From contig DUSI01000010.1 in NCBI GenBank assembly GCA_012842685.1, positions 23,988-87,987 on the forward strand: 64,000 bases of DNA, given 5' to 3'. Source of the stretch: Candidatus Fermentithermobacillaceae bacterium (GTDB lineage: Bacteria > Bacillota > Sulfobacillia > Fermentithermobacillales > Fermentithermobacillaceae). This document shows positions 10,813-64,000 of the stretch, one piece after another. Each line of letters starts with the position of its first letter. Position 1 is the stretch's first letter. The position numbers and the translations under genes are program-made. Below the pieces are notes generated by a model. The model saw only the letters and a program-made list of their open reading frames with translations. It made no database searches and was not told where the DNA came from.

Positions 10813-11610
10813 ATGTGCGACTTTCTGTGGGAGGTGACCAACATCCCATCGTATCAGAGCGACAACGCATACTTGACAGCCCTCCATGTAGTTGCAGAAT
10901 CGGAAGTCCCCGTGGGGGCGTGGTACCTGCGCAGGGCCTTGTCCGAAAGGGGCATCCGGGTTTCGGAGGCGACGTGCGGAAGGCTCCTCAGGATGATGGA
11001 AGACGCCGGCCACGTGGAAGCCAAGAGCCGCAAAGGGCGGGTTCTCACCCCCAGGGGCCAGCGTGTGCTCCAGGAATGGCAGGAGCGGCTCAAGCGGGAC
11101 AGGAGCCAGACGGCTTTTGTCCAGAGCCTCAGGGTTCACAACCCGGAAGAGCTTGTTGACGTCCTTATCGCCAGGCGAGCTCTTGAAGGAGAAGCCGCTG
11201 CCTTGGCCGCGGAGAACGCTACCCCCGAAGAGATAGGCCGGCTCCGCAACATCATCAGAGAGCACGAAGCAGCTCTCTCGGCCCAGCAGTCGGGCGCCGA
11301 GGAAAACACCGCTTTCCATCTGACGCTGGCGGAAGCCAGCAGGAACAAAGTCATCGTGGCCGCTCTGGATGTCATCTACAGGCACCCCGATGTGATGACT
11401 TCCCTCGAGTACATCCGTGCCCATGCCGGATCCAAAATGGCCGCCGACCACAACCCTGTACTTAACGCCGTGGCGCAGAGAGACCCTGACGCTGCGCGCG
11501 CGGCCATGATCCAACACATCAACAACGTGATAGAGGACGTGAAAACGTACCTCCGAACGTTGGCGTCGGAGGGGGAATCAGAAGTTGTCAGCAAGACAGA
11601 AAATCCTTGA
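10813..11610 (+). CDS. transcriptional regulator with an N-terminal winged-helix and a C-terminal FadR-type ligand-binding (FCD) domain
   Basis: C-terminal helical bundle VLIARRALEGEAAALAAENATPEEIGRLRNII...HLTLAEASRNKVIVAAL typical of GntR/FadR FCD domains. Confidence 0.75.
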   Translation: MCDFLWEVTNIPSYQSDNAYLTALHVVAESEVPVGAWYLRRALSERGIRVSEATCGRLLRMMEDAGHVEAKSRKGRVLTPRGQRVLQEWQERLKRDRSQTAFVQSLRVHNPEELVDVLIARRALEGEAAALAAENATPEEIGRLRNIIREHEAALSAQQSGAEENTAFHLTLAEASRNKVIVAALDVIYRHPDVMTSLEYIRAHAGSKMAADHNPVLNAVAQRDPDAARAAMIQHINNVIEDVKTYLRTLASEGESEVVSKTENP

Positions 11611-11821
11611 CGCGTGTGACATAGAGACCTTCTTTGTGTGCAAAGACGCAGAAGAGGGAAAGAGACTTGGGTTGGCCCTCATGAAAGAACTGGGGTTCGC
11701 CGATTGTGACGTGGTGTTCTCCGAGATGGCAGGCCCCGGAGCCCGCGTGAGGGTAAGGGGGTATGTAAACCGTCCGGGTAGCACCTACACCTGGCGGCAG
11801 GAAGGAGGACGCCCATCGTGA
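11585..11821 (+). CDS. 78-aa protein translationally coupled to the B12-binding mutase-like gene; possible small subunit
   Basis: TTG start 8 nt after GGAGGGGG; stop overlaps the GTG of the next gene (GTGA). Confidence 0.4.
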   Translation: MSARQKILDACDIETFFVCKDAEEGKRLGLALMKELGFADCDVVFSEMAGPGARVRVRGYVNRPGSTYTWRQEGGRPS

Positions 11822-13641
11822 GCGCCGGCGCAGGCCAGAAGATCTTGATCGTGCCCCTGGATCCGGTACACGACGTGGGGGCTAAACTCATCGCCAGGAC
11901 CTTGCGGGAGAGAGGCCATTCGGTGACGCTCCTCCCGCCTGATCTTTCTATCGAAGAAGTGATATCCAGGGCCCGGCAGATGGTACCAGACTTCATCATG
12001 GTCAGCCGCACCATCAGCTACGACACTCCCGAGATCCTCGCGAAATTCGCCGACATGTGCGACGTGGCGGGCCTGAGGAGCCACGCCAAGCTGGTCGTCG
12101 GCGGTATGAGCATCCGCAAGGAGATGGCGCAGGAACTCGGTTTCGACGCCGGGTTTGGCCCGGAGACCACCCTGGAGGAAGTGGCCGATTACGTCGAAGG
12201 GAAGGTTCACCACGAGGAAGGAAAGGCGTACACCGGGACAAAACCGGACCTCACGAGAGGCTACAAATACGAGTTCGTGGATAAGGAGATAGGCGATCTC
12301 TGCGTGGCCATCGCCCGCCAGCTGATAGACTGGGCTTCAGAGCGTACGAGCCCGGGCGTGGAGAGGGCGAGGCTCCGGCTGGAGATGGAGAAAGCGAGGG
12401 GCGCGGGAGACGAGTCCCTCGCCCGCGAGCTCAGGGCGAAATACGCCTCTCTGACGGGCGGAGATGTCCGCAAGTGGTACGAAAGCGGCGCGCCCATACC
12501 TCACACGAGACCCCTCACGGCCGACGAGGTCGCGGCGCTTGAGGGCATGGATGAGGGTATCCCGGCACAGCTTCTGTCTCAGAAGCCGCTGGAACCCTCG
12601 AACGTGATCATCCAGTACGGCACCGGCTGTCCCGTGATGGATGCCTACCATATTAGACTTTCCCTGGCGTGGGGAGCGAAAGGCGCCGTGCATTTCGACC
12701 CGTCGTGGGGAGCGAGAACCGAGGGCCTTGCGGAAGGCACGCTCAGCCACCAGCACGACGGGACCGTGCTCACCCTAGAGAACCTCAGGCTCCTCAAGCG
12801 GGCGGTCCATCCGGCTGCGCTCTGGCAAGTGAGGGCCCACAGGGGCCTCAATACCCCCGAGACCGTGGTGCTCGCCCACCTTTCAGGGGCCGACCTCACG
12901 AAGATAAACATCGTCTACGGGAGCCTCGGGGCCGGGACAGACCCCGCCAGGCTGGCGGTGGACGGCGTAGAATGTCTCAGGCTCGCGGCCTCCTTCGGGC
13001 TTCCCTATGACGTGGTGACCAACGAGGAGCTCTGCGGCGTGCCTGCCAGGAAGGCTTTCGCGGGAATGCTGGTCGTAGCCACTGCAGGCGTCCTCCTGGG
13101 CGGCAGGCCCATCCTGCAGCCTCTCTTCGCCGATTCCCCGGAGGCCATGGTCTCCGGCTTTACCCGGGATAACTTGGTGGACTTCAACGCCGCAAAGATG
13201 ATCGCCCTGAAGAGCATAATGGACGCGCCCATATGGCCGGGCGCCCCCGTAGGGTTCATGACCCAGACTCAAGACAGGTGCCAGTCTTCAACGATGACTG
13301 CGCTTCACGCCGCGCTGGGCCTCAGGTTGGGCGCTGAAGCGGTCACGATCGCTTCGAGCGATGAGGCTTACGCGGGCGGGCCCATCTCTGCCCAGGCCAG
13401 GGTAGACACTCTCAAGGCGGTGGCGGCAGCCCTTAAGTTCTTCGGCTCGACCCGCATCGCTCCCACCCCCAGGGCGGAAGAGATGGCGGCCGAACTGAGG
13501 AAAGGCATAAAGGAGACCCTCGAGAGAGTCTACGAGAGAGGCGACTTCGTGGCATCCCTCTATGAGGGGCTCCTGGGAGATAGGGAGGACGGGGCCTATC
13601 CCGGCAGGGCAGGAAGAGATACCGTTACCCTTCGGAAATAG
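11818..13641 (+). CDS. cobalamin-binding mutase-type protein: N-terminal B12 Rossmann domain fused to a ~470-aa C-terminal catalytic domain
   Basis: KILIVPLDPVHDVGAKLI (DxHxxG), ...FIMVSRTISYD..., LVVGGM... aligns with the GlmS/MutS-type B12 domain; GAAGGAGGA RBS 8 nt before the GTG. Confidence 0.8.
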   Translation: MSAGAGQKILIVPLDPVHDVGAKLIARTLRERGHSVTLLPPDLSIEEVISRARQMVPDFIMVSRTISYDTPEILAKFADMCDVAGLRSHAKLVVGGMSIRKEMAQELGFDAGFGPETTLEEVADYVEGKVHHEEGKAYTGTKPDLTRGYKYEFVDKEIGDLCVAIARQLIDWASERTSPGVERARLRLEMEKARGAGDESLARELRAKYASLTGGDVRKWYESGAPIPHTRPLTADEVAALEGMDEGIPAQLLSQKPLEPSNVIIQYGTGCPVMDAYHIRLSLAWGAKGAVHFDPSWGARTEGLAEGTLSHQHDGTVLTLENLRLLKRAVHPAALWQVRAHRGLNTPETVVLAHLSGADLTKINIVYGSLGAGTDPARLAVDGVECLRLAASFGLPYDVVTNEELCGVPARKAFAGMLVVATAGVLLGGRPILQPLFADSPEAMVSGFTRDNLVDFNAAKMIALKSIMDAPIWPGAPVGFMTQTQDRCQSSTMTALHAALGLRLGAEAVTIASSDEAYAGGPISAQARVDTLKAVAAALKFFGSTRIAPTPRAEEMAAELRKGIKETLERVYERGDFVASLYEGLLGDREDGAYPGRAGRDTVTLRK

Positions 13642-61652: not shown

Positions 61653-62753
61653 CTATAGCCCTCTGCACTCCCTGTCGCCCGGGAGCATCCATTCGATCTT
61701 CTCAGGCAGTCTGATGACGAACTCCCTGAGGAGCCTGAGCGCCGCGTCGGCGTCCCTGAGGTCTATGAGCTCGACGGGGGAGTGGGAATACCGTCTGGGT
61801 ATCGTTACCGCGGCCGAGGGGATGCCAGACCTGGAGAGGTGCATGGCGGTTGCGTCGGTGTTTCCGCCGGTGAAGAGCACTGGTTGGTAGGGGAGCCCCG
61901 CTTCTTTCGCCGTCTTCTCGAGCATGGAGAACACGGTGGTATCCGCCACCATCCCCCTCGCCCCGCCACCTGAGGTAACCTGCAAGACGGGTCCGAGCCC
62001 TATCCCCACCGGGAGCTCTTTGGTGAAGTTTATCTCAGGCGTATCTCCCGAGGGGACCGTATCCAGGGCTATGGCGATGTCGGGGTTCACCTCGAAAGCC
62101 GCGACGGTCGCTCCGCGCAGGCCGATTTCCTCCTGGACGGTGATTACGCAGTGGAGCTCTCCTCTGAATTCTCTATCTTTGAGGGATTCGAGGAGGGCCA
62201 GCATGACGGCGCACCCTACGCGGTCATCCAGGGCCTTGGAAACGAGGAGATCCTCCGACATGAAAGTGGGCGGAGATACGAACGTGATGGGCGTCCCGAC
62301 CATGATCCCCATGGACAGGACTTCTTCTTGCGACCTGGCTCCGACATCTATGTAGAGTTCTGTGTGCTTTTTGACTTCTGAGCGCTCTTTTTCGGACGAG
62401 AGGTGGCCGGCCTTTACTCCTATGACGCCTATGTGCCCGGCCAGGCTCACCACGCGGCCGGGGAGCAGGTTGTCTCCGACCCCGCCCATTTTCTCAAAGC
62501 GGATGAAGCCGTTTTTCTCGATGCTTTTTACTATGAGGCCGATCTCGTCGGAGTGGGCCGCGATCATGACTTTGGGACCGGGCTTTCCTCGCTTCACGGT
62601 GAAGATGTTCCCCATGGGGTCGACCCGGATTTCATCTACCAGAGGCTTCATGGCCTCGACCATGTAGCGTATGACTGCCCCCTCGCGTCCCGAGACGCCA
62701 GAGAGGGTGAGGAGGGGAAGCAGGTGTTTTTTGATCAGCTCGCGGTCGGACAA
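61653..62753 (-). CDS. M42-family metallo-aminopeptidase (second paralog)
   Basis: LLTLSGVSGREGAV, IAAHSDEIGLIV; TTG start 9 nt after AAAGGAG (the track TTG start at 62852 would overlap the downstream promoter). Confidence 0.85.
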   Translation of the reverse strand: MSDRELIKKHLLPLLTLSGVSGREGAVIRYMVEAMKPLVDEIRVDPMGNIFTVKRGKPGPKVMIAAHSDEIGLIVKSIEKNGFIRFEKMGGVGDNLLPGRVVSLAGHIGVIGVKAGHLSSEKERSEVKKHTELYIDVGARSQEEVLSMGIMVGTPITFVSPPTFMSEDLLVSKALDDRVGCAVMLALLESLKDREFRGELHCVITVQEEIGLRGATVAAFEVNPDIAIALDTVPSGDTPEINFTKELPVGIGLGPVLQVTSGGGARGMVADTTVFSMLEKTAKEAGLPYQPVLFTGGNTDATAMHLSRSGIPSAAVTIPRRYSHSPVELIDLRDADAALRLLREFVIRLPEKIEWMLPGDRECRGL

Positions 62754-62819
62754 CTGGCATGCTCCTTTCGCTTTTGTCTCAGGTCGGATTTCTAGATCAG
62801 CCGCCTTCTCACCTCCATA

Positions 62820-62880
62820 TTGACTTCTAGCCCGCTCGGGGATAATATACAAACAAGTGTTCTATACGAACAGGTGATCG
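62820..62880 (+). promoter_or_regulatory. sigma-A promoter TTGACT-N17-TAATAT followed by a Cheo-like LexA box (CGAACAGGTGATCG, 13/14 to CGAACRNRYGTTCG) overlapping the RBS of the imuB-like gene
   Basis: hexamers at 62820-62825 and 62843-62848; box 62867-62880; also GTTC-N4-CGAAC at 62859-62871. Confidence 0.45.
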
Positions 62881-62883
62881 ACA

Positions 62884-64000
62884 ATGGGACGTATATTATA
62901 CCTTAAATTCCTGGGGGCTCGAGCAATCCAGGAAGCCAAAAAACAAGACTTAAGCTGCGAAAAACCGCTGGCGATCCTCGAGCGGGATCTGGTTTTGGAC
63001 TGCAACGAAAAAGCGTGGGACGACGGGGTAAGGCCGGGAGATACTCTCAGGCAGGCCAGGATAGCATCCCCTATGTGTCGTGTCCTCAGGGTGGGCGGCA
63101 TAGGCGGAGAGCACCTCGAGGATATCCTGGAGGCTCTGGCCAAAATCAGCCCTTACATAGAACCTTCCCCGGATCAAAACGGCGTGTTTGTAGATATCCC
63201 TCATGATTCCGCCCCGGAGGAGATCCTGGATCTCTTGGGCGGCCTGTACTTCTGCGCTTTCGCGGGGCTGAGCTCCTCAAAGCTCGTATCCCGGGCGGTT
63301 TGCGACCTTCTTATGAAAGAGTACCTGGGGCGGGGGAAGGTATCTGCGGGAAATACCCTGTGGGGTTCAGTACGCTATGAGGCGTCAAGAAGCGCCCCGC
63401 AAAGAGAAGGACAAGAGGGTGAAGATGGCGGGCGGACGGGCAGCCGGGTAGTGGCCGTGGTAACGGCCGGAAGAGAAAAGGCTTTCCTCGCTTGGGCTCC
63501 CTTGGACTCCCTGTGGATGGCTCCTACGGAGATCTTGTCGGCCCTTAAGTCTCTGGGGCTCAAGAAGGTCAGGGATTTGCGCGAAGTACCGGTATCCGCC
63601 CTGGCGGAGCACATAGGCGACTGGGCCTACATGGTTAAGAGGTGGGCAGATGGAGAAGAGCGTTCTCGAGTACAGGCCCTTTACCCGCCGCCTACCCTGT
63701 CTAGAGAGGTAAATTTCATCGAACCTGTCCCGCTTCAAAAGGAGCTGTTCCACGGCGTGCTCAAGGATCTGGCGGCCTGCCTTATTGAGAAAGGGGTCGG
63801 GTTTAAGACCCTGAGGCTCTCCTTATCGGGCGATTTCCAGATGTTTTCGGGAAATCCGTCGGGCGAGAGGAAGTTCGTGAGGCCCGTGGCTTCCCTCGAC
63901 GTCATGCGAGCTGCCGTGGATGCCATAGTCGAAAGTATCCTGAAAGACATTTCTCCTGATTCCGTGCCGGCAATATCCGGTTTCAGCATCGAGCTCGGCG
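62884..64000 (+). CDS. ImuB-like catalytically inactive Y-family DNA polymerase (3' end beyond window)
   Basis: Open frame with no stop to the window edge, absent from the ORF track because it is unterminated. Y-family blocks align to DinB (VRPGDTLRQARIASP; IEPSPDQNGVFVDIP; AFAGLSSSKL; HhH LDSLWMAPTEILSALKSLGLKKVRDL). The catalytic Asp/Glu are replaced (MGRILYLKFLGA for HVDMDCFFAA; DQNG for LDEAY). Confidence 0.65.
   Translation, partial: MGRILYLKFLGARAIQEAKKQDLSCEKPLAILERDLVLDCNEKAWDDGVRPGDTLRQARIASPMCRVLRVGGIGGEHLEDILEALAKISPYIEPSPDQNGVFVDIPHDSAPEEILDLLGGLYFCAFAGLSSSKLVSRAVCDLLMKEYLGRGKVSAGNTLWGSVRYEASRSAPQREGQEGEDGGRTGSRVVAVVTAGREKAFLAWAPLDSLWMAPTEILSALKSLGLKKVRDLREVPVSALAEHIGDWAYMVKRWADGEERSRVQALYPPPTLSREVNFIEPVPLQKELFHGVLKDLAACLIEKGVGFKTLRLSLSGDFQMFSGNPSGERKFVRPVASLDVMRAAVDAIVESILKDISPDSVPAISGFSIELG

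What the first reader, a model, noticed from the sequence alone, without database searches (positions are those of the whole stretch)
62754..64000. ImuB-like inactive Y-family polymerase behind a consensus sigma-A promoter and a Cheo-type SOS box, cut by the window edge
A long open frame with no stop before the window end is missing from the ORF track. It translates to a Y-family polymerase in which the catalytic carboxylates are replaced (N-terminus MGRILYLKFLGA; DQNG instead of DE in the IEP...D block). That is the ImuB signature. Upstream are TTGACT-N17-TAATAT and, overlapping the RBS, CGAACAGGTGATCG (13/14 match to the Gram-positive LexA box). An error-prone DnaE2-type polymerase gene (imuC) is expected just beyond the window. 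Revising the adjacent M42 peptidase start to the RBS-supported TTG at 62753 frees this promoter region.
Basis: partly seen in the sequence, partly recalled or inferred. Interest (0 to 1): 0.5.

Follow-up and report, generated by a model that had tools for sequence, protein, structure and literature searches.

The report
SOS-controlled split-ImuB mutagenic polymerase operon
The window ends inside the first gene of a three-gene, probably DNA-damage-inducible operon for an error-prone DNA-copying machine (a dead Y-family polymerase scaffold, a small adaptor protein and a DnaE2 polymerase); this type of system has already been described by computation, so this is a sound annotation and not a new kind of biology.

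Summary
An ORF starts at ATG 62884 and is still open at 64000. It has a Y-family polymerase fold, and its catalytic carboxylates and dNTP-binding residues are replaced.

Near-identical contigs (7 mismatches in 11,117 nt) extend it to 466 aa. They show the predicted partner downstream: a 1047-aa DnaE2-type polymerase. It is a standalone ImuB-C domain (Pfam DUF6504), and no imuA lies within ±10 kb.

So this is not canonical ImuA-ImuB-ImuC. It is the published "split ImuB" system (iPolY + ImuB-C + DnaE2X, presumably with RecA; Kyrpidia tusciae type). Here it sits in uncultured Candidatus Fermentithermobacillia (Bacillota), where every copy is annotated "hypothetical".

The gene order and promoter are conserved in 15 species. 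The −35, −10 and 5' UTR are conserved; the spacer is not.

A better operator abuts the −10 at 62850-62863. It matches the clostridial LexA form and is a perfect CGAACAAATGTTC in distant orthologues.

LexA control and mutagenic function are inferred, not shown. Verdict: new member of a known kind, modest interest.

The parts
61653..62753 (-).
   Evidence: Pfam Peptidase_M42 E=7e-91, domain from residue 48. Gene calls of 366 aa on L001-L003. Orthologues align from residue 1. AAAGGAG lies 8 nt upstream of the TTG.
62820..62825 (+). -35 hexamer TTGACT
   Evidence: TTGAC is invariant in 15/15 orthologous loci; 1.83 bits per position.
62843..62848 (+). -10 hexamer TAATAT, 17-nt spacer from the -35
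   Evidence: TAnnAT at the same spacing in the orthologues, with an unconserved spacer (0.64 bits per position).
62850..62863 (+). This is the probable main operator.
   Evidence: One of only two RAAC-N4-GTTY matches in 64 kb. Its reverse complement has the GAAC-N4-GTTT form used upstream of lexA, recA and ruvC in C. difficile (PMC4234289). The equivalent site is a perfect CGAACAAATGTTC in L017-L019 and CGAACATATGTTCG in the unrelated L022.
62867..62880 (+). The left half CGAAC is conserved in 12/15 loci (CAAAC in L016). The right half is the Shine-Dalgarno AGGTGATC (62872-62879). Possible auxiliary operator.
   Evidence: CGAAC is absent in L017 and L019, where box 1 is perfect, while GGTGATC is kept in L019 and degenerate in L017.
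62884..64000 (+). Codons 1-372 of a 466-aa catalytically inactive Y-family polymerase homologue (iPolY, 'split ImuB' N-terminal part), cut by the window edge
   Evidence: 99.7% identical to the full-length P0001. Profile against PDB Pol IV 7yll, E=5e-11. AF2 model pLDDT 75.8, and all top Foldseek hits are Y-family polymerases at E~1e-20.
62905..62907 (+). K8, at the position of the first catalytic Asp of Y-family polymerases (Dpo4 D7 / DinB D8). Varies K/R/N/T/S within the family.
   Evidence: Register taken from the invariant E17, the predicted strand at 3-10 and the helix at 12-20. The register itself is inferred, not produced by an alignment tool.
62998..63018 (+). DCNEKAW, which replaces the dNTP-binding motif (S/C)SYEAR. 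The Tyr position is E42 and the Arg position is W45.
   Evidence: Profile alignment to 7yll: CdekawadGv against CSYEARKYGI.
63172..63180 (+). D97-Q98-N99, at the position of the catalytic Asp-Glu pair (SIDEAYLD). The carboxylate pair is lost and these columns vary within the family.
   Evidence: The profile alignment puts D-E opposite Q98-N99. Family columns read D/G/S, Q/G/W/S/E and N/S/I/Q/K.

Best explanation
The window ends inside the first gene of a three-gene operon for a 'split-ImuB' translesion/mutagenic polymerase complex.

Gene 1 (62884 to beyond the window edge, 466 aa) is a Y-family polymerase homologue with a dead active site (iPolY). I read it as a scaffold. After the polymerase-like core it carries three elements:
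- a candidate beta-clamp-binding peptide (QAKPSPLF, residues 378-385);
- a RecA-N-terminus-like helix (residues 398-416);
- a conserved tail, PEIIRREKMLAIWDPMR.

Gene 2 (79 aa) overlaps the stop codon of gene 1 by 8 nt. It is a standalone ImuB-C beta-barrel domain (Pfam DUF6504). In canonical ImuB this is the domain that holds the PHP domain of DnaE2.

Gene 3 (1047 aa) is a DnaE2X-group C-family polymerase. Its palm aspartates are intact and it has no tau-binding C-terminal domain. It is the subunit that synthesises DNA.

No ImuA is encoded nearby, so RecA probably takes its place through the RecA-NT motif.

The operon is read from a sigma-A-type promoter. Its -10 is followed directly by a LexA operator of the Bacillota type (62850-62863) and by a second, weaker box fused to the ribosome-binding site (62867-80). 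In undamaged cells LexA would sit on the transcription start and keep this mutagenic polymerase off. RecA-stimulated LexA self-cleavage after DNA damage would switch it on.

Shown here: gene content and order, fold, loss of catalytic residues, domain homologies, and conservation of the promoter and operator. Inferred: LexA binding, damage induction, complex formation, clamp and RecA contacts, and mutagenic activity.
For: Extension beyond the window:
- L001 differs from the window at 7 of 11,117 positions.
- On all four near-identical contigs the ORF is followed by a DUF6504 gene and a DnaE-type gene.

Fold and inactivity:
- The family profile hits Pol IV 7yll at E=5e-11 over both halves of the protein.
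- The top 50 Foldseek hits listed are all Y-family polymerases, at E~1e-20 to 1e-16.
- The catalytic D-E pair aligns to Q98-N99, and the dNTP-binding Tyr and Arg align to E42 and W45.
- No carboxylate is conserved in the N-terminal strand.

ImuB-C:
- The 79-aa protein hits PF20114 at E=8e-11.
- The ImuB-C proteins published for K. tusciae and A. acidocaldarius hit the same model.
- BLASTP against K. tusciae ImuB-C gives 29% identity over 79/79 residues, E=3e-16.

DnaE2X:
- The first 400 aa are 52.5% and 46.5% identical to the published DnaE2X of K. tusciae and A. acidocaldarius (420 and 344 bits). DnaE2A gives 34-37% (about 210 bits) and the DnaE1 chains in the PDB about 250 bits.
- The protein aligns to E. 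coli alpha residues 6-1072 of 1160, so it lacks the C-terminal domain.
- The PDIDVDF motif is intact.

Scaffold motifs and family placement:
- hhalign places VALKLTLFGLEEKFGDRAV on RecA residues 6-24.
- The family profile scores ImuB-C-associated PolYs far above DinB: P0020 1.8e-31, A. acidocaldarius iPolY 1e-20, DinB 1e-4.

Conservation:
- The gene order is the same in every species locus that has enough flank.

Regulation:
- The footprint covers the -35, the -10 and the UTR, but not the spacer.
- Box 1 fits the clostridial LexA operator form GAAC-N4-GTTT (PMC4234289).
- The core is perfect at the same place in L017-L019. Those are 3 of only 6 exact cores in 330 kb.
- A perfect CGAACATATGTTCG sits downstream of a consensus promoter in front of an unrelated PolY-ImuB-C pair in L022.

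Literature:
- The iPolY + ImuB-C + DnaE2 (+RecA, no ImuA) module is described in PMC6511836 and PMC12926913.
Against: - No lexA, recA or other SOS gene lies in the window or in any fetched locus. I therefore could not confirm the LexA motif of this lineage on its core regulon.
- In 12 of 15 species box 1 has AAAC rather than GAAC in one half-site. Box 2 has GATC rather than GTTC.
- Within the window alone the motif counts do not exceed chance.
- NCBIfam places the DnaE below the cut-off of both the replicative model (917 against 1002) and the error-prone model (895 against 939). I built no tree that includes DnaE3.
- The RecA-NT match is short (19 columns, hhalign probability 11%). The clamp motif is non-canonical.
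- Absence of ImuA was checked only within ±10 kb.
- Pairwise similarity to the type iPolY of K. tusciae is marginal (E=0.017).
- No experiment exists for any member of this split type.
Confidence: 0.8

Rival explanations
1. A canonical ImuA-ImuB-ImuC (DnaE2A) cassette, as found in Proteobacteria and Actinobacteria. The ORF would be a true ImuB with a fused C-terminal ImuB-C domain, working with an ImuA partner.
For: The protein is an inactive Y-family homologue followed by a DnaE2-type gene. It shows weak similarity to ImuB1 of Niastella and Pseudomonas (E=1.6e-5 and 8e-4).
Against: ImuB-C is a separate 79-aa gene in every locus. No ImuA-like gene lies within ±10 kb. The DnaE is much closer to DnaE2X (52%) than to DnaE2A (34-37%). 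According to PMC12926913, ImuA-ImuB-DnaE2 occurs only with DnaE2A.
Confidence: 0.04
2. The Y-family protein is an active DinB-like translesion polymerase with an unusual active site, and it does the bypass itself.
For: It has a full Y-family fold with palm, fingers, thumb and little finger. D97 lies next to the expected catalytic position.
Against: The catalytic D-E pair aligns to Q-N. D97 is G or S in some family members. The N-terminal catalytic Asp position is K/R/N/T/S. The dNTP-binding Tyr and Arg are replaced by E and W. The protein evolves about twice as fast as its partners: 29-66% identity against 59-84% for DnaE2.
Confidence: 0.03
3. The DnaE gene is the housekeeping DnaE (DnaE3/DnaE1-like) of this Bacillota lineage. 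The operon would then be a replication module, not a damage-induced mutasome.
For: NCBIfam scores the replicative DnaE model slightly above the error-prone model, both below cut-off. The gene is strongly conserved across the lineage (59-84% identity). I could not inspect the rest of the genome for other polymerases.
Against: Its best similarity is to the published DnaE2X sequences. It has no tau-binding C-terminal domain. It is co-transcribed with a dead Y-family scaffold and with ImuB-C. Conserved LexA-type operators cover the transcription start. A constitutively needed replicase would not be expected behind an SOS operator (inference).
Confidence: 0.06
4. On regulation only: the conserved 33-nt leader is not a LexA operator. 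It would be the site of another regulator that recognises the central palindrome TGTTC-N5-GAACA, or a 5'-terminal RNA hairpin.
For: The right half of box 1 and the left half of box 2 form an inverted repeat. In L016 both sides change together (TGTTT...AAACA). In most species box 1 departs from GAAC. No LexA regulon control was available.
Against: The RNA fold of the leader is unremarkable (-5.8 kcal/mol, z=-0.72). L017 and L019 lack the central palindrome but have a perfect CGAACAAATGTTC. L022 has a single perfect Cheo box and no second half-site. AAAC-N4-GTTC is the same as GAAC-N4-GTTT, a proven LexA operator form in Clostridia. The L016 changes are also neutral transitions under an RAAC/GTTY half-site.
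Confidence: 0.15

Closest known systems
DnaE2X-iPolY-ImuB-C-RecA system ('split ImuB'; type operon Kyrpidia tusciae ADG05750/ADG05749/ADG05748; Timinskas & Venclovas 2019, PMC6511836; NAR 2026, PMC12926913)
   Same: - Same three genes in the same order: an inactive Y-family homologue, a standalone ~80-aa ImuB-C (both hit PF20114) and a DnaE2.
- The DnaE2 is 52% identical to the K. tusciae DnaE2X over the first 400 aa.
- A RecA-NT-like motif is present, followed by a conserved C-terminal tail (PE..RR..L..[FW]DP). The tail is also seen in the Sphaerobacter iPolY.
- No imuA lies nearby.
   Different: - The iPolY here is very divergent from the type sequences: E=0.017 against K. tusciae and 2e-9 against A. 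acidocaldarius in pairwise BLAST.
- Pfam IMS misses it (18 bits against a cut-off of 23.2).
- It comes from an uncultured class (Ca. Fermentithermobacillia) that I did not find in the held supplementary text of those papers, though some of those files were cut when stored.
- lexA is not in the operon.
- The promoter carries a tandem box arrangement in which the second box is fused to the Shine-Dalgarno sequence.
Canonical ImuA(ImuA')-ImuB-DnaE2(ImuC) mutasome (Mycobacterium tuberculosis, Pseudomonas aeruginosa, Caulobacter)
   Same: A catalytically dead Y-family scaffold with a RecA-NT motif, an ImuB-C module and an error-prone C-family polymerase. Canonical cassettes are LexA-regulated (PMC6511836). 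It probably works the same way: the scaffold would bring DnaE2 to the clamp at lesions.
   Different: ImuB-C is a separate polypeptide rather than the C-terminal domain of ImuB. No ImuA was found, so RecA is presumed to substitute. The DnaE2 belongs to the X group, not the A group.
E. coli Pol V (UmuD'2C-RecA) and B. subtilis YqjW-YqjX
   Same: The logic is the same: a LexA-repressed Y-family protein, a small accessory subunit that binds its C-terminal tail, and RecA contacted through a RecA-NT-like motif (PMC6511836).
   Different: In those systems the Y-family subunit is itself the active polymerase and the small subunit has an SH3-like fold. Here the Y-family subunit is dead, the small subunit is ImuB-C, and a DnaE2 does the synthesis.
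PolY-ImuB-C two-gene modules (Geobacter lexA-imuB-C-polY; the pair found here on L022)
   Same: A Y-family gene next to a standalone DUF6504/ImuB-C gene behind a LexA box. L022 has a consensus promoter followed by a perfect CGAACATATGTTCG.
   Different: In those modules no dnaE2 follows. On the short L022 contig the next gene is convergent. The published Geobacter-type PolY appears to be active, and the L022 PolY passes Pfam IMS.

Membership tests
Canonical ImuB (ImuA-ImuB-DnaE2 mutasome) | Y-family DNA polymerase fold | tested here: met
   The family profile hits Pol IV 7yll at E=5e-11. AF2 model with Foldseek: all top hits are Y-family polymerases, E~1e-20.
Canonical ImuB (ImuA-ImuB-DnaE2 mutasome) | Catalytic carboxylates lost | tested here: met
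   The D-E pair aligns to Q98-N99. The first Asp position is K8 and varies in the family. The dNTP-binding Tyr and Arg are also replaced.
Canonical ImuB (ImuA-ImuB-DnaE2 mutasome) | ImuB-C domain fused to the C-terminus of the same polypeptide | tested here: not met
   P0001 ends after the RecA-NT motif and a short tail. ImuB-C (PF20114) is a separate 79-aa ORF in all loci.
Canonical ImuB (ImuA-ImuB-DnaE2 mutasome) | ImuA/ImuA' partner gene | tested here: inconclusive
   None within ±10 kb.
Canonical ImuB (ImuA-ImuB-DnaE2 mutasome) | Beta-clamp-binding motif between the little finger and the RecA-NT motif | tested here: inconclusive
   A conserved QAKPxxL[FL] peptide lies at residues 378-385. 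It only loosely resembles QL[SD]LF, and binding was not tested.
DnaE2X-iPolY-ImuB-C-RecA system (split ImuB) | Inactive PolY (iPolY) encoded next to a standalone ImuB-C | tested here: met
   The stop and start codons overlap by 8 nt in L001.
DnaE2X-iPolY-ImuB-C-RecA system (split ImuB) | DnaE2 of the X group in the same operon | tested here: met
   52.5% and 46.5% identity to the published DnaE2X sequences, against 34-37% to DnaE2A and lower scores to DnaE1. This rests on similarity ranking only; I built no tree.
DnaE2X-iPolY-ImuB-C-RecA system (split ImuB) | RecA-NT-like motif in the C-terminal extension of the iPolY | tested here: met
   hhalign places residues 398-416 on RecA 6-24 in the published register. 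Single-comparison E=0.0027, but probability only 11% because the motif is short. A helix is predicted at 398-411.
DnaE2X-iPolY-ImuB-C-RecA system (split ImuB) | Sequence membership of the iPolY-wE2X group | tested here: met
   The family profile scores the A. acidocaldarius iPolY at 1e-20 and the K. tusciae iPolY at 3e-6, against DinB at 1e-4 and Dpo4 at 8e-3, in a small local database. The link to K. tusciae alone is weak.
DnaE2X-iPolY-ImuB-C-RecA system (split ImuB) | No imuA or imuB anywhere in the genome; RecA is part of the complex | not testable with these tools
   Only ±10 kb could be read. No interaction data exist.
LexA (SOS) regulon, Bacillota-type operator GAAC-N4-GTT[CT] | Operator match overlapping the promoter | tested here: met
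   AAAC-N4-GTTC at 62851-62862, one base after the -10. This form is used at the C. difficile lexA, recA and ruvC genes.
LexA (SOS) regulon, Bacillota-type operator GAAC-N4-GTT[CT] | Operator conserved in orthologous promoters | tested here: met
   All 15 loci carry the box (two of them, L015 and L016, as AAAC-N4-GTTT). It is perfect in L017-L019 and in the unrelated L022.
LexA (SOS) regulon, Bacillota-type operator GAAC-N4-GTT[CT] | Same motif upstream of lexA, recA and uvr genes of the same genome; LexA binding; induction by damage | not testable with these tools
   No lexA or recA in the window or in 22 loci.
DinB/Pol IV (active translesion polymerase) | Catalytic Asp/Asp/Glu triad and the SYEAR dNTP-binding motif | tested here: not met
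   NCBIfam DinB models score 22 bits or less against cut-offs of 256-381.
DnaE2 (error-prone C-family polymerase) | NCBIfam NF004225 'error-prone DNA polymerase' cut-off | tested here: inconclusive
   894.8 bits against a cut-off of 939. The replicative model NF004226 gives 916.8 against 1002.
DnaE2 (error-prone C-family polymerase) | Intact polymerase palm; no tau-binding C-terminal domain | tested here: met
   PDIDVDF at residues 385-391. The alignment ends at E. coli alpha residue 1072 of 1160.

The most novel reading that the evidence does not exclude
The Fermentithermobacillia operon is a distinct, so far unannotated branch of the split-ImuB system, with its own regulatory arrangement of two sub-optimal LexA boxes 17 bp apart. 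The second box would be built into the Shine-Dalgarno sequence and would be dispensable only where the first box is perfect, as in L017 and L019. Two LexA dimers would then bind cooperatively and repress a mutagenic polymerase more tightly. If the stop/start overlap of iPolY and ImuB-C is typical of the ancestral state, this lineage would also be a natural 'pre-fusion' form of ImuB. It could be used to test directly how ImuB-C recruits DnaE2 and whether RecA replaces ImuA.
Probability: 0.25. Interest if true: 0.45.

Novelty: new member of a known kind. Interest (0 to 1): 0.3.

Why it matters
- Annotation: every member of this iPolY family is labelled 'hypothetical protein' in public data, and Pfam misses it. 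The result therefore gives an uncultured thermophilic class of Bacillota a usable annotation for a damage-tolerance and mutagenesis module.
- Regulation: it adds 15 species, with a clean promoter/operator footprint, to the split iPolY-ImuB-C-DnaE2X type. [quoted passage not shown]
- Experiments: a system in which ImuB-C is a separate polypeptide and RecA presumably replaces ImuA is a convenient natural dissection of the mutasome for biochemistry.
- Limit: it does not change what is known about how such systems work.

Tried and rejected
1. Direct family assignment failed. Pfam IMS scores 18 bits, below the 23.2 cut-off. NCBIfam DinB models score 22 bits or less. Single-sequence PDB hits reach only E~5e-3. 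A family profile and a structure model were needed.
2. I looked for lexA and recA in the window and in 22 loci with tblastn, to check the operator on core SOS genes. Nothing was found.
3. Other Cheo-type hits were followed and dismissed as chance. Window 11686-11699 lies between a GntR/FCD regulator gene and a gene for a B12-binding-domain protein. L018:4211 lies inside a coding region.
4. I tested a structured RNA leader as an alternative to an operator. The fold is not better than shuffled sequence (z=-0.72).
5. NCBIfam cannot tell DnaE2 from replicative DnaE here, because both models score below cut-off. I used similarity ranking against published DnaE2X and DnaE2A sequences and PDB DnaE1 chains instead.
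6. I checked the unannotated neighbouring ORFs for ImuA or RecA-like proteins. None was found.
7. 'DUF6504' returns no paper. Its identity with ImuB-C was established by scanning the published ImuB-C sequences against Pfam.
8. A structure prediction for the ImuB-C protein was not attempted.
Full report
**1. Observation**

The + strand carries an ATG at 62884-62886. From there the frame stays open for 372 codons to the end of the window. The protein begins MGRILYLKFLGA and contains YIEPSPDQNGVFVD. The ORF lister omits it only because it does not list ORFs that run off the window.

Upstream lie TTGACT (62820-62825), a 17-nt spacer and TAATAT (62843-62848). This is a 9/12 match to the sigma-70/sigma-A consensus. 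CGAACAGGTGATCG lies at 62867-62880.

Taken inside the window alone, these short motifs are not beyond chance. The promoter scan finds 1 site where 0.8 are expected. The box pattern with one mismatch occurs twice, and 81 of 100 shuffles do as well. Their reality has to come from comparison with other genomes (section 6).

The proposed start of the divergent M42 peptidase gene (TTG at 62753, 366 aa) is supported:
- AAAGGAG lies 8 nt upstream of the TTG.
- Gene callers on four contigs chose this start.
- Orthologues align from residue 1.
- The M42 domain starts at residue 48.

**2. Extending beyond the window**

A homology search returned a 466-aa protein, P0001. It is identical to the window ORF except for one residue. 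It is encoded on four assembled contigs. L001 differs from the window at only 7 of 11,117 aligned bases, so it can stand in for the missing sequence.

Three things follow the ORF there:
- The ORF ends 94 codons after the window edge.
- Its stop codon overlaps by 8 nt (ATGTCTAA) the start of a 79-aa gene.
- After an 81-nt gap comes a 1047-aa gene with the PHP, DNA_pol3_alpha, finger, HhH and OB domains of a DnaE-type polymerase.

There is no early stop, and a dnaE2-type gene is present.

**3. The Y-family protein**

Single-sequence searches barely detect it. Pfam IMS scores 18 bits against a cut-off of 23.2. NCBIfam DinB models score 22 bits or less. Pol iota in the PDB reaches E=5e-3.

A profile of 19 family members (alignment A1) hits the solved Pol IV homologue 7yll at E=5e-11 across both halves of the protein. 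An AlphaFold2 model (mean pLDDT 75.8; residues 1-376 are mostly above 80) finds only Y-family polymerases as top Foldseek matches, at E~1e-20. The fold is therefore established.

On the profile alignment the active site is gone:
- The catalytic pair in SIDEAYLD faces Q98-N99.
- The neighbouring D97 is G or S in some members.
- In the dNTP-binding motif CSYEARKYG, the Tyr and Arg face E42 and W45.
- The N-terminal strand (ILYLKFLG) has no acidic residue. K8 takes the place of the first catalytic Asp and varies K/R/N/T/S. This register is inferred from the invariant E17 and the predicted strand and helix.

The protein also diverges roughly twice as fast as its operon partners. Across species its identity is 29-66%, against 50-88% for the 79-aa protein and 59-84% for the DnaE. 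That fits a scaffold rather than an enzyme.

**4. The C-terminal extension (beyond the window)**

After the little finger come three conserved elements:
- QAKPxxL[FL] at residues 378-385, a possible but non-canonical clamp-binding peptide.
- VALKLTLFGLEEKFGDRAV at residues 398-416.
- The tail PEIxRREKMLSxWDPMR.

hhalign places the second element on RecA residues 6-24 (AALDMALRQIEKQFGKGSI). This is the register of the RecA-NT motif described by Timinskas and Venclovas. The match is short: single-comparison E=0.0027 and probability 11%. The tail recurs in an unrelated PolY (P0020, RRERLLALFDPYR) and in the Sphaerobacter iPolY (IPERRRALISFDP).

**5. The two downstream genes and the published system**

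The 79-aa protein matches Pfam DUF6504 at E=8e-11. No paper mentions that Pfam name.

The supplementary data of PMC12926913 give the sequences the authors call ImuB-C in Kyrpidia tusciae and Alicyclobacillus acidocaldarius. Both hit the same Pfam model. The K. tusciae protein aligns with ours end to end, at 29% identity and E=3e-16. DUF6504 is therefore the ImuB-C domain.

For the DnaE:
- Its first 400 residues are 52.5% and 46.5% identical to the DnaE2X of those two organisms (420 and 344 bits).
- They are 34-37% identical to the DnaE2A of Pseudomonas and Caulobacter.
- They score about 250 bits against the DnaE1 chains in the PDB.
- The protein lacks the C-terminal tau-binding region of E. 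coli alpha.
- It keeps the PDIDVDF palm motif.
- NCBIfam cannot decide, because both the replicative and the error-prone models score just below cut-off.

The literature describes exactly this arrangement. An inactive PolY, a standalone ImuB-C and a DnaE2, without ImuA and presumably with RecA, was first reported for K. tusciae (PMC6511836). It was later named DnaE2X-iPolY-ImuBC-RecA, regarded as a split ImuB and proposed as a possible precursor of ImuA-ImuB-DnaE2 (PMC12926913).

Our family profile scores iPolYs that partner with ImuB-C well above DinB. No ImuA-like gene lies within ±10 kb.

**6. Distribution and the promoter footprint**

A scan of one genome per species found 15 loci. All are in uncultured Bacillota. 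They include Candidatus Fermentithermobacillaceae and the complete genome of Ca. Fermentithermobacillus carboniphilus, class Ca. Fermentithermobacillia. Wherever the flank is long enough, the order iPolY, ImuB-C, DnaE2 is the same.

When the upstream regions are aligned, TTGAC is invariant, and in most loci a TAnnAT -10 follows at 17 nt. The spacer is not conserved. The 33 nt from the -10 to the start codon are almost invariant: ACAAACAAATGTTCAATACGAACAGGTGATCGcc-ATG. In the 11 loci with identical spacing, information content per position is 1.83 (-35), 0.64 (spacer), 1.59 (-10), 1.76 (leader) and 0.47 (upstream flank).

The leader holds two Cheo-type boxes.

- Its core AAAC-N4-GTTC is the reverse complement of GAAC-N4-GTTT. 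That is the operator form listed upstream of lexA, recA and ruvC in Clostridium difficile (PMC4234289).
- It is one of only two RAAC-N4-GTTY sites in the 64-kb window.
- In the three most distant orthologues it is a perfect CGAACAAATGTTC. These are 3 of only 6 exact GAAC-N4-GTTC cores in 330 kb of fetched DNA.
- An unrelated PolY + DUF6504 pair (L022) has TTGACA-N17-TATAAT followed by a perfect CGAACATATGTTCG.

- Its right half, GGTGATC, is the Shine-Dalgarno sequence.
- Its left half, CGAAC, is missing in two of the three loci where box 1 is perfect.

I therefore take box 1 as the main operator and box 2 as a possible helper site.

The right half of box 1 and the left half of box 2 also form a palindrome, TGTTC-N5-GAACA, and both sides change together in L016. 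An RNA hairpin there is not supported (z=-0.72). The L016 changes are equally neutral under an RAAC/GTTY half-site.

**7. What could not be tested**

The operator could not be checked on the core regulon of this lineage.
- The other Cheo-like hits are chance.
- Absence of ImuA from the whole genome, presence of PolC/DnaE3, LexA binding, damage induction, complex formation and mutagenic activity are all inferred.

**8. Verdict**

- The system is the split-ImuB type (iPolY + ImuB-C + DnaE2X), not a canonical ImuB/ImuC cassette.
- The principal LexA box is 62850-62863, not 62867-62880.
- The promoter is near-consensus, not consensus.

This is a new member of a known, computationally described kind, in a lineage where it is unannotated. 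It is a good annotation with a well-supported regulatory footprint, but it is not surprising to a specialist. Interest 0.3.

Noticed in passing
window 11686-11699: AGAACTGGGGTTCG has a perfect GAAC-N4-GTTC core. It lies in the intergenic region between a GntR/FCD-type regulator gene (10813-11610) and a gene for a 607-aa B12-binding-domain protein (11818-13641). No SOS-related function is apparent, so I treated it as a chance match. Its conservation was not checked.
   Followed up: partly
L001:11394-11401 (just beyond the window edge): The iPolY stop and the ImuB-C start overlap as ATGTCTAA, so a single frameshift would recreate a fused, canonical-looking ImuB. The junction varies between species, from a 13-nt overlap to gaps of tens of nt, up to about 170 nt in L013. 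It is therefore not a conserved programmed-frameshift site.
   Followed up: partly
window 63373-63453 (iPolY residues ~164-190): A charged, low-complexity insertion (EASRSAPQREGQEGEDGGRTGSR) occurs only in the five closest family members. It is predicted to be disordered (pLDDT below 50 at residues 177-183).
   Followed up: no
L001-L021, whole operon: The dead Y-family scaffold diverges much faster (29-66% identity) than ImuB-C (49-89%) and DnaE2 (59-84%) across the same species pairs.
   Followed up: partly
L016:2200-2250 (promoter of the orthologous operon): Paired substitutions turn GTTC of box 1 into GTTT and GAAC of box 2 into AAAC. This preserves the central palindrome (TGTTT-N5-AAACA). 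It is compatible either with tolerant RAAC/GTTY half-sites or with selection on the inverted repeat itself.
   Followed up: partly
L022:1560-3102: In another lineage a 410-aa PolY sits next to an 82-aa DUF6504/ImuB-C gene. This PolY is detectable by Pfam IMS, starts ...VFVDIEGFF and has SEHQ in place of SIDE. The pair lies behind TTGACA-N17-TATAAT and a perfect CGAACATATGTTCG. The next gene on the 3.7-kb contig is convergent, so no dnaE2 follows directly.
   Followed up: partly
L001:14828-14858: The 3' end of dnaE2 overlaps by 31 nt the 3' end of a convergent RsmD-like methyltransferase gene (Cons_hypoth95). This arrangement is kept in most species.
   Followed up: no
L001:16615-20192 (downstream of the operon, outside the window): A conserved syntenic block of four small ORFs with no family match (276, 146, 75 and 118 aa) is followed by a 567-aa CDC48/PAN-like AAA ATPase. 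The function is unknown. None of them resembles ImuA or RecA.
   Followed up: partly
window 63830: This is the only coding difference between the window and the public contigs within the iPolY gene (Gly in the window, Ala in P0001, residue 316). The window therefore comes from a very close but not identical strain.
   Followed up: yes
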